A DNA stretch of 64,000 nt from Octopus vulgaris (Eukaryota), in contig OX597815.1 of the NCBI GenBank assembly GCA_951406725.2, positions 198,586,001 to 198,650,000 of the forward strand, written 5' to 3'. Shown here piece by piece: positions 14,669-48,530 of the stretch (position 1 is the first letter of the stretch; each line of letters begins with the position of its first letter). The notes below the pieces were generated by a model that saw only the letters and a program-made list of their open reading frames with translations, was not told the DNA's origin and searched no databases. A program made the translations under genes and the position numbers.

Positions 14669-14889
14669 CAACAATAATAATAATAATAGTCCTGTTTAAC
14701 GAGTAGGATCTGATATTTAGGCTTTATTGGCATTGTTCCTACACATGATGTCTCGATGGAAACATTGGGGATTGCACAAAGTTACAAAACCAATAACCTT
14801 AAAAATTAGTGTAACGCAAAAAGAAAACCTTTTAATATTTTCGAGACTGATATCAGAAACAACGATGTGGGTGCCGTACCTGCAAGCAG

Positions 14890-15397
14890 CAGTGCGTAAT
14901 GACATGCATAAGATCTTGTCACCAAATCTAAGTAGAGACTTCAAACTTGAAATCTTCAAAGTCACAGTCGAACCAATTCTACTATATGGCTCAGAAACCT
15001 GGACGTTATCAAAGAAGCTTGAGAGGTGGTTGGATGGAACCTACACTCGCCTCCTTATGAGAGCTCAAAATCTCTCGTGGAAGCGTCATCCAACCAAAAT
15101 GCAAATATATGGGAATCTACCGCCTGTGTCATCTCTTGTGAAAGGTAGGAGAGTCCAGTTTGCTGGGCATTTTTGTAGAGCTGAAAACGAGGCAATTTCT
15201 ACTCTTCTCCTCTGGAAGCCATCTACTCGCAATACCAGATGGCGCACACTCTCCTACCCTGATGTAATCTCCAGGGATACAGGTATCCAGCAACAGGACC
15301 TCCGTAATGCTATGATGGACCGTGAAGTCTGGCGTAGCATGGTAAATTCCATCGTCTTGACCACGGTCGAACAATGATGAGGATGATGATGATGATG
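14890..15397 (+). mobile_element. RTE-clade LINE 3' end (5'-truncated)
   Basis: ORF 14727-15377 contains VEPILLYGSETWTLSK, RRVQFAGHFCR and AMMDREVWRSMV, typical of RTE C-termini; stop followed by a (TGA)n tail. Confidence 0.85.
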
Positions 15398-29379: not shown

Positions 29380-30355
29380 CTAATAACTGCTTTTGGTATC
29401 GGCACAAAAACTGTAATTGAGGGAGATGAGCAAATTCCACAACTAGAGTGGTACTTCAGTTTATCAACTCCTGTGGGACGAAAGCTAAACTTCTCCTCAT
29501 CGTGATTGGAACTCAGAATTTTGTGTCAGACGAAAGACGTTAAAGTGACATATTCACACTAAAATTATTATCTATTTCTTTACTACCTACAAGGGACTAA
29601 ACAGAGAGAGGACAAACAAGGACAGACAAACGGATTAAGTCGGTTACAGCGACCCCAGTGCGTAACTGGTACTTAATTTATCGACCCCGAAAGGATGAAA
29701 GGCAAAGTCGATCTCGGCGGAATTTGATCTCAGAACGTAGCGGCAGACAAAATACCGATTTCTTTACTACTCACAAGGAGCTAAACACAGAGGGGACAAA
29801 CAAGGACAGACAAACGGTTTAAGTCGATTATATCGACCCCAGTGCGTAACTGGTACTTAATTTATCGACCCCGAAAGGATGAAAGGCAAAGTCGACCTCG
29901 GCGGAATTTGAACTCAGAACGTAACGGCAAACGAAATACGGCTACGCATTTCGCCCGGCGTGTTAACGCTTCTGCCCGCTCGCCACCTTTTCACATAAAG
30001 GCAGACGAAATATTGTCAAGCATTTCGCCCGCCGTGCTAATGATTCTTATGTCTTTATTGCCCACAATGGGCTAAACATAGAGAAGACAAACAAGGACAA
30101 ACAAACGGATTAAGTCGATTATATCGACCCCAGTGCGTAACTTGTACTTAATTTATCGACCCTGAAAGGAGGAAAGGCAAAGTCGACCTCGGCGGAATTT
30201 GAACTCAGAACGTAACGGCAAACGAAATACGGCTACGCATTTCGTCCGGCGTTTTAACGCTTCTGCCCGCTCGCCACCTTTTCACATAAAGGCAGACGAA
30301 ATATTGTCAAGCATTTCGACCGCCGTGCTAATGATTCTGCCAGCTCACCCCCTTT
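29380..30355 (-). mobile_element. SINE family A multimer array (plus an old copy at 29380-29545)
   Basis: Three GACCC.GAAAGGA.GAAAGGCAAAGTCGA bodies in tandem, plus a duplicated head segment. Confidence 0.9.
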
Positions 30356-31725: not shown

Positions 31726-32145
31726 GGCGGCGAGCTGGCAGAATCGTTAGCACGCCGGGCGAAATGCGTAGCCATATTTCGTCTGCCGTTAGTTCTGAGT
31801 TCAAATTCCGCCGAGGTCGACTTTGCATTTCATCCTTTCGGGGTCGATTAAATAAGTACTAGTTACGCACTGGGGTCGATATAATCGACTTAATCCGTTT
31901 GTCTGTACTTGTTTGTCCTCTCTCTATTTAGCCCCTTGTGGGTAGTAAAGAAATAGGTATTTCGTATGCCGCTACGTTCTGAGTTCAAATTCCGCCGAGG
32001 ACGATTTTGCCGTTCATCCTTTCGGGGTCGATTAAATAAGTACCAGTTACGCACTGGGGTCGATATAATCATCTTAATCCGTTTGTCTGTCCTTGTTTTT
32101 CCCCTCTGTGTGTAGCACCTTGTGGGCAGTAAACAAATAAAAAAA
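31726..32145 (+). mobile_element. SINE family A dimer
   Basis: Head GGCGGCGAGCTGGCAGAATCG; two bodies joined at AAAGAAATA/GGTATTTCG. Confidence 0.9.
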
Positions 32146-33556: not shown

Positions 33557-33587
<31 letters not shown>

Positions 33588-33588
<1 letters not shown>

Positions 33589-33830
33589 GTAAAATAATAT
33601 GGGACAATTATTCAATAAGCCAAGATAAAACTCTGAGTTTCGGATGCCGTATTTCAGATGGCCAGATAACCGAAGAGATGGTGTTGTAAATTTCCACCTC
33701 GGCATCCGAAACTCGGAGTTTTATCTTGGCTATTGAATAATTGTCACATATTATTTTACAGATAAATTTCCTCCTATTTACATAATATTGAGGTCTCTTT
33801 CTTTCTTTTGTTATCTTACCGCTTTTACCA
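33588..33830 (+). mobile_element. Fold-back element in (TA)n containing a hammerhead-like motif (33661-33730)
   Basis: ~61-bp inverted arms 33588-33649 and 33700-33760; GCCAGATAA-CCGAAGA-GATG...CATCC-GAAA-CTCGGAG-TT-TTATCTTGGC. Confidence 0.75.
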
Positions 33831-33854
33831 ATATATATATATATATATATATAT

Positions 33855-34451
33855 ATCAATCAATATAAGGGTAACAAAAAATTCAAGAAAAATTTTCTGC
33901 CACCAGCGGTCAAGTGAGAAAATAGAAATAGTCACAGACTATATGATACATTCAACAAAATATTAAAGAATGACCCTGAGAAGGTCGTTCGACTCACTTG
34001 AAAAGAGCAGCTAAAACTCAAAACCGCAAAAAATAGTAATTCTGAAACTAGAGGAAAATAAAAAAACATTTATCCCCTTCAAACTTTGTACCCTGCAAGG
34101 TTTCAACATCTTCACGCAATCAAATTTAATTAAATTAAATTAAATCCATTTACGCTTGGCTTGTCTCGTCAGCAAAGTCAACAAAATAGGAGGCAGATAT
34201 ATATACACGAGGCTACACCATCTAAGCCTCGGGTCTATATATCGTAAATTTTCGAATTCACCGTAATCGCGCCATCTACTCCGCAGCAAATATAAGTTGC
34301 TGATACAGATTTCAGAATTAGTCAAAAATTCATTAATCAATCAATATAAGGGTAACAAAAAATTCAAGAAAGATTTTCTGCCACAAGCGGTCAAGTGAGA
34401 AAATAGAAATAGTCACAGACTATATGATACATTCAACAAAATATTAAGGAA

Positions 34452-34454
<3 letters not shown>
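33855..34454 (-). mobile_element. Retrozyme-like / non-autonomous Penelope-like element: 481-bp unit with 119-bp terminal direct repeat, in (TA)n
   Basis: 33855-33973 is repeated at 34336-34454 (3 mismatches seen); (TA)n on both sides; internal hammerhead. Confidence 0.75.
34082..34179 (-). ncRNA. Type I hammerhead ribozyme
   Basis: Minus strand GACTTTG-CTGACGA-GACA...TGTT-GAAA-CCTTGCAGGG-TA-CAAAGTT: 7-bp stem I, complete CUGANGA/GAAA core, extended stem II, near-palindromic stem III, GUA cleavage triplet (cut between 34089 and 34088). Confidence 0.85.
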
Positions 34455-34513
<59 letters not shown>

Positions 34514-34784
34514 GAGTAAATGCGCTAAGCAGTATTTACGTATAATCACAATTTAGGTTAGTTGAAAATTGTTTGTCACATATTTCAACTGCTATTTAAT
34601 ATTTCTTCACAAATATCTTTTCCCCCTTGTTCTCTCGCTTTGTACTTTCCAGGCATTTTCGATCAAATCTACCGCGAATTGACATGGAATCCGTTGATGG
34701 AAATGTAAACTTCATTTGCTTAAGGTGTCTTCGAGGTTCATTTCGCCATGAAGCATGTAGGCTGGATTCCATTCCATAATTTTG

Positions 34785-34988
34785 TATATATATATATATA
34801 TACGTACATATATATATATATATGTATGTATGTATATATGTATGTATGTATATATGTATGTATGTATATATGTATGTATGTATATATGTATATATATATA
34901 TATATGTATGTATGTATATATGTATATGTATGTATGTATATATGTATATATATATGTATGTATGTATATATGTATATATATATGTATG

Positions 34989-35049
<61 letters not shown>

Positions 35050-35085
35050 GTATGTATATGTATGTATATATATATATGTATGTAT

Positions 35086-35153
<68 letters not shown>

Positions 35154-35218
35154 GTATGTATATATATATATATATGTATGTATATATATATATATGTATG
35201 TATATATATATATGTATA

Positions 35219-35281
<63 letters not shown>

Positions 35282-35334
35282 GTATATATATATATATGTA
35301 TGTATATATATATATATGTATGTATATATATATG

Positions 35335-35413
<79 letters not shown>

Positions 35414-35500
35414 GTATGTATATATATATGTATATATATATATGTATGTATATATATATATATGTATGTATATATATATGTATATATATATATATGTATG

Positions 35501-35531
<31 letters not shown>

Positions 35532-35572
35532 TATATATATATATATATGTTATATATATATATATGTATATA

Positions 35573-35620
<48 letters not shown>
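34785..35620. repeat. Very long (TA)n/(TATG)n/(TG)n microsatellite
   Basis: Direct inspection. Confidence 0.95.
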
Positions 35621-35812
35621 GCTCTATATTTAAGAGATGAGGAATTATACAATTGACGGATATTTGCCCTTATCTTGTTAGCTGTTAAGACAACATTTCA
35701 GCTGATATACCCTCCAGCCTTCATCAGGTGTATTGAGGAAATTTCGAACTTGGGTTCTCAATCCCAAATTTTATTTAATTTGCTTTGCGTCTTCCCCCTA
35801 CCTTCGAAATGT

Positions 35813-35815
<3 letters not shown>
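35620..35815 (-). mobile_element. Short (TA)n-embedded element with a minimal hammerhead-like motif (35686-35733)
   Basis: Minus strand ACAC-CTGATGA-A-GGCTG GAGGGTATAT CAGCT-GAAA-TG-TT-GTCT; flanked on both sides by (TA)n. Confidence 0.65.
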
Positions 35816-35886
<71 letters not shown>

Positions 35887-36312
35887 CATGTATGTATATA
35901 TGTATGTATAATAGAATATTCTGTCAAGTGCGTTTATTGTTAATTTTGTTTGCCAGCTTTTGCAAAAAAAATATCAATTATTTCTCTTCCTATTTTCAGA
36001 AAGAACGTTTCGTCTTAACTTACAATGTATGTGTGTTACTGTAAGTGAGAAAACCAAAACTCCTGGGATAATATGGCGACAATAATACAAGTAGGATCTG
36101 CACTTTTATTTTCAAGAAGCAAGTATATTTGAAAGGTTTCTCTCCGACAATGTCTCTAACTAGCACAGCTTTATCTTTGTATATATATATATATCTTTCA
36201 ACTATTTACTTTTCATTGTTTCCTCGCTCTTCAAAAACACGTATGTAGGTAGATAAATGGATATAACTCGTTTACACCACATGTCTTCTGTGTTTTTTTT
36301 TTTGTGAATTCT

Positions 36313-36350
<38 letters not shown>

Positions 36351-36829
36351 GGTGAAATATAATTAATATAATAAAATTAATAAATTTCACCTAGTAGTTT
36401 TTTCGGCATGGAAATGACCATATTTAGTAAGGATTGTATTAATCATAATAAAGGGTTAAACGGGTTACAAATTCTGTTTGGTTGTGGAGACTTTTTTTTA
36501 CTAGTAGTAGAAATAGTGACCTATTTGGCTGCTATTTCTAATATTTTCGGTATGTGGTTTTGAACAACTTGTTGCAATTAACCCTTTATTATAATATATA
36601 TATATACCTTGGATATATAACGATCAAAGTATGCTGATTAAAAGACTTACACCATTTAGGCTATATAATGTCAATCACGGTTATGATATAATTGTCACTA
36701 GATCCACATAAGGAATTCCGCAGAGTTCGTTGAGTTTATAAGGAATTCCAGAAGCGGAAAATTTTGTTAGCAAGAACCTTTATTCAACACTGTGTTTATA
36801 CATGTGCAAGAATATATTCTTTTCTACGC

Positions 36830-37655
36830 TAAGCACAAGGCCCGAAATTTGGGGGGAGGTGGCCAGTCGATTAGATCGACCCCAGTACGCAACTGGTACT
36901 TAATTTATCGACCCCGGAAGGAGGAAAGGCAAAGTCGACCTCAGCGGAATTTGAACTCAGTACGTAAAGACAGAAGAAATAACGCTAATCATTTTGCCCG
37001 CTGTGCTAGCGTTTCTTATTTATTTACTGCCCACAAGGGGCTACACACGGAGGGGACAAACGAGAACAGACAAATGGATTAATTCGATTATATCGACCTC
37101 AGTGCGTAACTGGTACTTATTTAATCGACCCGAAAGGAGGAAAGGCAAAGTCGTCCTCGGCAGAATTTGAACTCAGAACGTAACGGCAGACAAAATACCG
37201 CTAAGCATTTGACCCGGTGTGCTAACGTTTCTTATTTCTTTATTGCCCACAAGGGGCGAAACATAGAGGGGCAAACAAAGATATATAAAGGGATTAAGTC
37301 GATTATATCAACCCCAGTACGTAACTAGTACTAATTTAATCGACTCCGAAAGTATAAAAGGCAAAGTCGACCTCGGCGGAATTTGATCTCAGAACGTTAA
37401 AGACAGATGAAATACCTATTTCTATTTCTTTACTACCCATAAGGGGCTAAACACAGAGAGGACAAACAAGGACAGACAAACGGATTAAGTCGATTACATC
37501 GACCCCAGTGCATAACTGGTACTTATTTAATCAACACCGAAAGGTTGAAAGGCAAAGTCAACCTCGGCTGAATTTGAACTCTGAACGTAGCTGCAGACGA
37601 AATACGGCTACGCATTTCGCCCGGCGTGCTATCGATTCTGCCAGCTCGCCGCCTT
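36830..37655 (-). mobile_element. SINE family A tetramer array
   Basis: Four tandem bodies; intact head at ~37655 (GCCAGCTCGCCGCC). Confidence 0.9.
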
Positions 37656-44884: not shown

Positions 44885-45342
44885 GGACCTTTTCGGTTTG
44901 AACGGCAGTTTTTTGTAGCGGTGTCATATGAAATTGTCACCCATAATTATGACCCTAGTATCGATCTATTGCATTTCAATCTATTTTATGGTTAGGGTTA
45001 GAGTTAGGGTTAGTTAGGGTTTGTTAGGGTTAGAGTTAGGGGTGGGGGAAGTGTATCTTTTTTTTTCTTCAGAAATGTCAATAAACCGAATCTATTTCTT
45101 AAACGAGGGACATATTCATACGGCACAGAACGTTTTCACCTCAATAGACGGTCATTGATTTGTTTGAAATTGCAGAAATTGAAGAAAAAAAACAACAAAT
45201 ATCTTACAAACTATAGAATTTTCTCAATAAAGCCAAAAGAAAAAGATGTTTTATAAACACATTCTACCAGTATACGAAGTTTAAAAGTGTTTAGTTACGT
45301 GGAAATTATTTTTAAAAAGTGCCGTTCAAACCGAAAAGATCC
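44885..45342. mobile_element. MITE with 8-bp TSD and internal TTAGGG-like repeats (Merlin-like ends)
   Basis: TIRs GGACCTTTTCGGTTTGAACGGCA / TGCCGTTCAAACCGAAAAGATCC; perfect TSD GTTAAAAC at 44877-44884 and 45343-45350. Confidence 0.9.
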
Positions 45343-48337: not shown

Positions 48338-48530
48338 GAGAATTCACAAAACAAAAGCAAAAGACAAAGGCACGTGGTGTAAACAACAGACAGATGTATT
48401 AGTATAACGCTCGTGAAGTGAAAATGTCTTTAACGTTTCGAACCTACGCTCTTCCACATAAAGGAACACAGAAAGGGACAAGGAGAGAAGATAAAGAATG
48501 TGTAGTGGCTACCGATCTATAATGGCGAAA
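48335..48530 (-). mobile_element. Short element next to (TA)n with a degenerate minimal hammerhead-like motif (48428-48463)
   Basis: Minus strand CTTT-ATGTGGA-A-GAGC GTAG GTTC-GAAA-CG-TT-AAAG; terminus GGGAGAATTCACAAAA also present inverted at ~36270-36316. Confidence 0.5.

What the first reader, a model, noticed from the sequence alone, without database searches (positions are those of the whole stretch)
33567..36600. One (TA)n tract hosting a string of unrelated short elements, most with hammerhead signatures
Seen: within 3 kb, (TA)n runs separate at least six different 130-600 bp segments: 33588-33830, 33855-34454, 34511-34784, 35620-35815, 35905-36180, 36195-36316 and 36345-36595. Three carry full hammerhead-like motifs. 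Two carry partial ones: at 34685-34772 on +, stem II and GAAG-CATG-TA-GGCTGGATTCC with the CUGA core lost; at ~36000-36055 on -, a hairpin followed by GAAA-CG-TT. Inference: a guild of ribozyme-bearing retroelements targets TA microsatellites, and each insertion splits the target and may regenerate it.
Basis: partly seen in the sequence, partly recalled or inferred. Interest (0 to 1): 0.75.

Follow-up and report, generated by a model that had tools for sequence, protein, structure and literature searches.

The report
Penelope retroelement pile-up in TA repeats
Seven different jumping-gene fragments, three still showing a hammerhead (self-cutting RNA) motif, lie between TA repeats here; five belong to families whose copies end in TA repeats across the genome, so this is likely a rare chance pile-up of a known kind of element (Penelope-like retrotransposons and their non-coding passengers), not a new system.

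Summary
The segments are real. They hold seven repeat-family pieces plus DNA with no other copy found (S5, most of S6). Three type I hammerhead motifs are confirmed (S1, S2, S4). The partial motif at 34750 is a true decayed one; the one at about 36005 is chance-level. Five families end in (TA)n at most copies (S1 27/29, S2 16/22, S3a 17/19, S6 14/15, S7 19/24; background 2.6%). S4 does not (2/30). The pieces show Penelope-like (PLE) hallmarks: 5' truncation, inverted arms, two fixed 3' ends, partial tandems. S6 lies behind a Neptune-type endonuclease elsewhere, and an intact 876-aa Neptune-type PLE with a hammerhead ends in (TA)n. So a TA-targeting guild is supported, but it is several tracts, not one. 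A runaway "insertion begets insertion" loop is not supported: neighbours across a tract are at baseline (5/105 vs 36/964), and about one such cluster is expected per genome. One hint of target growth remains: flanking TA is about twice the expected length. PLE hammerheads and microsatellite bias are published, and this scan noted the same system before in this and other genomes. Assembly junctions could not be checked with long reads.

The parts
33567..33588 (.). (TA)11 run, continuing a TACA/CA microsatellite from 33531
33589..33648 (-). S1 left arm: short inverted copy ending at the family's internal 3' end site
33649..33830 (+). S1 right arm: 5'-truncated PLE-type end; family 2202 search candidates; 3' end in TA in 27 of 29 other copies
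33661..33730 (+). Type I hammerhead-like motif, core CCGAAGA (U4C; 19 of 25 family copies), near-palindromic stem III
33831..33856 (.). (TA)13 between the facing 3' ends of S1 and S2
33857..34453 (-). S2: 1.25 copies of a 481-bp non-coding tandem unit (retrozyme-like), 119-bp terminal direct repeat, best other copies 97-98% alike
34083..34178 (-). Canonical type I hammerhead motif (core CUGACGA, 25 of 26 family units; GUA cleavage triplet predicted)
34454..34511 (.). (TA)29
34512..34594 (-). S3a: 83-bp 3' stub of a TA-ending family (hammerhead with U3-A8 core in longer copies, absent here)
34594..34784 (+). S3b: old (about 80% alike) hammerhead-bearing repeat with an internal deletion; decayed 3' half of the motif at 34750-34760
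34785..35620 (.). 835-bp compound TA/TATG/TG microsatellite
35620..35767 (-). S4: 3' 148 bp of a very abundant hammerhead family that does not prefer TA; hammerhead core at 35727-35721
35816..35905 (.). (TA)34 plus TATG
35907..36180 (.). S5: no other copy found; likely host DNA; half motif at 36004-36011 is chance-level
36267..36315 (+). S6: about 45-bp 3' stub of the terminal repeat of a Neptune-type PLE; 36196-36266 has no other copy found
36316..36347 (.). (TA)16
36348..36457 (-). S7 left arm: inverted tail segment ending at the family's second 3' end site
36457..36593 (+). S7 right arm: 5'-truncated end at the first 3' end site; family hammerhead (U3-A8, 13 of 14 copies) not included here; followed by (TA)6

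Best explanation
The stretch is a pile-up of seven truncated retroelement fragments among at least three TA tracts, five from families whose copies end in (TA)n genome-wide, and likely inserted independently by Penelope-like (Neptune-type) reverse transcriptase-endonucleases. Shown: fixed 3' ends in TA, 5' truncation, inverted arms, two end sites per family, partial tandems, type I hammerhead motifs, a Neptune-type endonuclease upstream of the S6 family, and an intact TA-ending Neptune-type element in the genome. Inferred mechanism: the GIY-YIG endonuclease cuts (TA)n, which reads the same on both strands; each cut end primes reverse transcription at one of two internal sites on the element RNA; copying stops early, giving a short arm or two back-to-back arms with TA on both sides. 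S2 and probably S7 and S3a are non-coding passengers. S4 and S3b are bystanders, and S5 is host DNA. The hammerheads would process tandem transcripts; cleavage is untested. The cluster is the extreme tail of independent targeting in a genome with one TA run per kb.
For: 3' ends in TA: S1 27/29, S2 16/22 (the other 6 read on into the family's own sequence by eye), S3a 17/19, S6 14/15, S7 19/24, against 2.6% background. Genome-wide, 987 of 1532 exact S1 ends are followed at once by (AT)6. Hammerhead descriptor: 30 hits in 800 kb against 1, 1, 2 in shuffles; 14 of 30 within 150 nt upstream of TA against 10%. S6 family follows a zinc-finger + GIY-YIG frame in L167 and L168. L196:142-2769 is an open 876-aa frame with DKG, RVT_1 (E 7e-8), CX4CxxC linker and C-terminal GIY-YIG-type domain; its copies carry a U3-A8 hammerhead motif (16/16) and end in TA. 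Independence: 5/105 vs 36/964, p 0.59; 3 S1-F8 pairs seen, 0.9-2.2 expected; about 1 window with 6 or more families expected per genome. Architecture matches PMC8557442, PMC4209133 and PMC11167929.
Against: No coding partner was found for S1, S2, S3a or S7 (none on the same strand in 12 extended loci L310-L321 or the search loci), and they share no sequence with the intact element, so the driver is inferred from architecture only. No empty site was seen. With the S6 stub the window has 7 families, for which only 0.05 windows per genome are expected; the library was built from this window's families, which inflates that rarity, but mild hot-spot behaviour is not excluded. All 5 neighbour pairs involved one family (F8). 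Summed flanking TA is about twice the size-biased expectation. S1, S3a and S6 cores deviate from the canonical hammerhead core.
Confidence: 0.8

Rival explanations
1. Positive feedback: each insertion duplicates or extends the TA target (slippage or non-templated addition by the telomerase-related enzyme), so filled tracts become hot spots and chains grow.
For: TA on both sides in 20 of 26 two-armed S1 copies; summed length median 52.5 nt vs 27 nt size-biased, p 1.6e-4. Five TA-family insertions within 3 kb here; 7 families vs a maximum of 3 in 240 windows. Template letters just past several end sites are AT-like, which would allow slippage.
Against: No excess of neighbours (5/105 vs 36/964; 3 vs 0.9-2.2 pairs). 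Tracts next to an element are not longer than others (median 36 vs 32). A more-than-linear preference for long tracts gives the same flank lengths. Only 35 of 482 tracts touch such an element.
Confidence: 0.12
2. Assembly artefact: separate loci were joined through (TA)n.
For: Eight TA runs in 3 kb, one compound run of 835 bp; no public contig bridged any run.
Against: Junctions sit at each family's canonical end; the contig is 215.6 Mb; two-family pairs across TA occur at other loci; S5 lies in a single-copy-depth contig of another run.
Confidence: 0.04
3. The elements are MITEs or other DNA transposons with TA target duplications that later expanded; S1 and S7 look like foldback elements.
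For: S1 and S7 have inverted arms and TA flanks; TA-microsatellite-targeting DNA transposons exist in plants (PMC4486113, search listing only).
Against: Arms are unequal and vary in length around a fixed 3' end, copies are 5'-truncated, units form tandems, and families carry hammerheads; S6 is tied to a PLE endonuclease.
Confidence: 0.04

Closest known systems
Endonuclease-bearing Penelope-like elements, Neptune/Nematis type (Craig et al. 2021, PMC8557442, passages read)
   Same: 5' truncation, partial tandems, inverted 5' copy, optional tail, hammerhead in the terminal repeat, microsatellite bias, CX2-5CxxC linker
   Different: The paper names (TA)n for Naiads, which lack canonical hammerheads and are remnants in cephalopods; here the TA-enders carry hammerheads and the intact element has a C-terminal endonuclease. 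Tails here are longer (about 70-110 bp in S1, S2, S7, against 30-40 bp).
Minimal type I hammerheads of PLE terminal repeats (Cervera and de la Pena 2014, PMC4209133, parts 1-2 of 4 read)
   Same: Palindromic short stem III, extra nucleotide beside stem II, U3-A8 covariation, thousands of dispersed single motifs in many families
   Different: U4C (S1, F8, S3a) and A6U (S6) cores are not mentioned in the parts read; U4C is known from a viroid (PMC3088659, passage).
Animal non-LTR retrozymes (PMC7229834, passages; bioRxiv 10.64898/2026.07.22.740005, part 1 of 5)
   Same: S2: non-coding tandem unit, one canonical type I hammerhead per unit, AT-rich, proposed PLE dependence
   Different: 481 bp is slightly above the 150-450 bp quoted; TA targeting was not found in the passages read; circular RNA not shown here.
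Poseidon PAc in vitro (Frangieh et al. 2024, PMC11167929, parts 1-2 of 4)
   Same: Both strands cut and extended, AT-rich target, two internal start sites that define the tail
   Different: PAc starts at a site not homologous to the cut DNA and needs no hammerhead cleavage in vitro; here short AT-like matches past some end sites may aid priming (weak).

Membership tests
EN+ Penelope-like elements (Neptune/Nematis type) | RT plus C-terminal GIY-YIG endonuclease with CX2-5CxxC linker on the same element | tested here: met
   For the S6 family only the linker and endonuclease end were seen upstream (L167, L168); full frame in the separate family L196.
EN+ Penelope-like elements (Neptune/Nematis type) | Coding frame linked to S1, S2, S3a, S4, S7 | tested here: not met
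   No same-strand linked frame in sampled loci; treated as non-autonomous or unlinked, not as members.
EN+ Penelope-like elements (Neptune/Nematis type) | 5' truncation, partial tandems, inverted 5' arm, optional tail | tested here: met
EN+ Penelope-like elements (Neptune/Nematis type) | Phylogenetic placement of the RT in Neptune rather than Nematis or Hydra | not tested
   No reference sequences held; the label rests on motif order described.
Type I hammerhead ribozyme | Core boxes CUGANGA, GAAA, UH in type I order with stems I-III | tested here: met
   S2 fully; S4 with one substitution; S1 with U4C. Rfam gave 0 matches at gathering score.
Type I hammerhead ribozyme | Self-cleavage | not testable with these tools
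   Free folding of the three window monomers did not give the full active fold, as expected for dimer-type motifs.
Non-LTR retrozyme (S2) | Tandem non-coding units each with a type I hammerhead | tested here: met
   Units at 482-484-bp spacing; core intact in 25 of 26; longest ATG frame 45 aa. The window copy has only one hammerhead.
Non-LTR retrozyme (S2) | Expressed as circular RNA | tested here: inconclusive
   Family contigs in 3 of 4 runs guessed to be RNA; contigs cannot show transcription or circles.
Naiad | N-terminal endonuclease, no canonical hammerhead | tested here: not met
   Endonuclease is C-terminal and hammerhead motifs are present.
MITE / TIR DNA transposon | Fixed symmetric terminal inverted repeats | tested here: not met
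   Arms unequal and variable.

The most novel reading that the evidence does not exclude
The telomerase-related enzyme of these elements adds or duplicates (TA)n at every insertion, so a guild of many hammerhead retroelement families manufactures its own landing pads, and their family-wide non-canonical cores (U4C, A6U, U3-C4-A8) are tuned slow ribozymes rather than decay.
Probability: 0.15. Interest if true: 0.6.

Novelty: new member of a known kind. Interest (0 to 1): 0.3.

Why it matters
The locus itself is ordinary debris. The genome-wide picture is useful: many hammerhead families (30 motifs per 800 kb, roughly 100,000 if extrapolated) share one simple target, and an intact high-copy Neptune-type element is at hand. 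That makes two open questions in PLE biology testable: how microsatellite bias arises (named as open in PMC8557442) and whether insertions lengthen the target. Such young insertions could also confound TA microsatellite markers in this animal (inference).

Tried and rejected
Rfam scan of the window: 0 matches. Strict hammerhead scan found only S2; a relaxed one added S1. Idea that S1-S2-S3a sit inside one split S3b copy: the left flank did not match the S3b profile. S5 as a decayed element: no hits genome-wide or at low stringency in the fetched loci. Coding partners for S1, S3a, S7: none; the S1 hit behind a PLE frame in L046/L166 is the inverted arm across a TA run, a separate insertion. Public contigs: no RNA holder listed; no contig bridged a TA run with 31 letters on both sides; one search is no proof of expression. 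PDB search with the PLE protein: 0. The S3b core count was noise (4 hits) and is not used. Permuted (SGC) hammerheads, a lead from earlier notes (PMC10085705, passages): looked for by eye in S5 only, not found, not scanned systematically. Luense et al. 2017 on PLE hammerhead variants (recalled) is not held, so U4C/A6U cores may be described there. PMC12602865 passages held nothing relevant. PMC13282606 passages list recently active Penelope families in an octopus but no TA bias in the passages seen. Searches found no paper on a multi-family TA-targeting hammerhead guild in cephalopods; the library is incomplete and no supplements were read.

Full report
Setting. The window lies at G000:C2:198586001-198650000 in a 2.8-Gb animal genome. 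Its repeats look octopus-like; that label is recalled, and an earlier scan note uses it too. (TA)>=6 runs are very common: 805 in an unbiased 800-kb sample of 80 evenly spaced pieces, and about twice as dense in this window. Random positions have (TA)>=4 within 15 nt downstream in 2.6% of cases.

What each segment is. S1 (33589-33830) is a two-armed piece: a 60-bp inverted arm back to back with a 182-bp arm; 2202 candidates in the genome. S2 (33857-34453, minus) is 1.25 copies of a 481-bp unit that forms tandems elsewhere, best copies 97-98% alike, no frame over 45 aa. S3 is two elements: an 83-bp 3' stub (S3a) and an old, internally deleted repeat (S3b). S4 (35620-35767, minus) is the end of a very abundant family (3479 candidates). 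S5 has one candidate, itself. S6 is repeat-derived only in its last ~45 bp. S7 is again two-armed. Because S5 and the left part of S6 have no other copy, the stretch is at least three tracts, not one.

Hammerheads. A relaxed type I descriptor gave 30 hits in 800 kb against 1, 1 and 2 in shuffles; 14 of 30 lie within 150 nt upstream of a TA run against 10% background, and 3 of the 30 sat at a piece edge with no downstream information. In the window it finds S1 and S2; S4 has an intact core and one substitution at stem III. Family cores: S1 CCGAAGA 19/25, S2 CTGACGA 25/26, S4 CTGATGA 35/43, S6 CTGTGGA 8/13, S7 TTGACAA 13/14, S3a U3-A8 types 9/9. The second arises in 45 of 500 shuffles and lies in S5. 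U3-A8, palindromic stem III and the extra nucleotide are described for PLE hammerheads; U4C is known from a viroid. Rfam finds none of these. Cleavage is untested.

Targeting. Counting 3' ends in the loci returned by the searches, window copy excluded and internal tandem junctions set aside (10 for S2, 4 for S3a, 10 for S7): S1 27/29, S2 16/22, S3a 17/19, S6 14/15, S7 19/24 end in TA; S4 2/30. The 6 S2 misses read on into the family's own sequence. These loci are the top-scoring hits only. In the unbiased sample: S1 1/2, S3a 1/1, S6 2/3, S7 1/1, family F8 8/9, S4 0/9. Genome-wide, 987 of 1532 exact S1 ends are followed by (AT)6, and F8 has 8337 exact TA-abutting ends.

The driver. In L167 and L168 the S6 family follows a zinc-finger plus GIY-YIG frame on the same strand. 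A related RT query gave 15,942 candidates, 150 scored, many with open frames over 770 aa. L196:142-2769 encodes 876 aa with DKG, RVT_1, a CX4CxxC linker and a C-terminal endonuclease-type domain, the order given for Neptune/Nematis. Its copies carry a U3-A8 hammerhead motif (16/16) and end in TA at two sites. It shares no sequence with S1, S2, S3a or S7, and no coding partner was found for them. Trans-mobilisation is therefore inferred from shared architecture.

Mechanism. S1, S2, S3a, S7 and the intact element each show two end sites, and inverted arms end at one of them. This matches the in vitro behaviour of Poseidon PAc: both strands cut and extended, two internal start sites, the tail between them. 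(TA)n reads the same on both strands, so both ends of a break are equivalent primers (inference). The two-start reading was sharpened by earlier notes of this scan and then checked here.

Is the chain special? With a 19-entry library, 240 sampled 3.1-kb windows hold 0, 1, 2, 3 families in 177, 50, 12, 1 cases, close to Poisson; the finding holds 6 by the same test, 7 with the S6 stub. About 1 window with 6 or more and 0.05 with 7 or more are expected per genome; the library favours this window. Tracts beside a TA-family element have a different family on the far side in 5 of 105 cases against 36 of 964 sides at baseline, p 0.59. A genome-wide exact count gave 3 S1-F8 pairs against a rough 0.9-2.2 expected. 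So chains are not typical and no strong feedback shows. Against this reading: two-armed S1 copies have TA on both sides in 20 of 26 cases, with a summed median of 52.5 nt against 27 nt for a size-biased random run. Target growth or a steep preference for long tracts could both explain that.

Assembly. Public contigs did not bridge the TA runs. Canonical ends at the junctions argue against a misjoin, but long reads were not available.

Verdict. A real but known kind of thing: PLE ends and retrozyme-like passengers with hammerheads, several of them TA-targeting, piled up by chance with two bystanders and host DNA. The components are published, and this scan has noted the system before in this genome and others. 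I found no paper on the cephalopod guild itself.

Noticed in passing
L196:142-2769; L203-L212: Intact Neptune-type PLE with many near-identical copies, a long GT/AT-rich 3' region, a U3-A8 hammerhead motif and two TA-ending sites; in L205 the second end is followed by (TA)6 and the element's own 5' part.
   Followed up: partly
L001-L030 (e.g. L027), S4 family: Upstream of the hammerhead the family has a tRNA-like head (A/B-box-like, by eye) and an (AAT)n run, often in inverted pairs: a SINE-like passenger of a non-TA PLE. 19 loci in 800 kb.
   Followed up: no
L163, L224, L245, L267, L292 (family F8): Very abundant ~170-bp TA-ending family with a U4C hammerhead core; 8337 exact TA-abutting ends genome-wide.
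   Followed up: partly
window 48348-48529: A longer S6-family copy ending in TA.
   Followed up: no
L216-L292 hits: At least ten more hammerhead families; U4C recurs in unrelated ones, and U4C makes a CpG that can decay back to the canonical core (4 of 25 S1 copies).
   Followed up: partly
L101, L139, L301: Another repeat whose end abuts TA runs next to S3a, S7 or S1 copies; no hammerhead looked for.
   Followed up: no
window 29574-30338, 31775-32139, 36865-37416: Tandem arrays of a 184-291-bp SINE-like repeat (octopus-type SINE, recalled).
   Followed up: no
window 14721-15377: 218-aa frame that looks like the end of a LINE reverse transcriptase (recalled likeness, not searched).
   Followed up: no
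window 44986-45041: Short degenerate TTAGGG array inside the contig.
   Followed up: no
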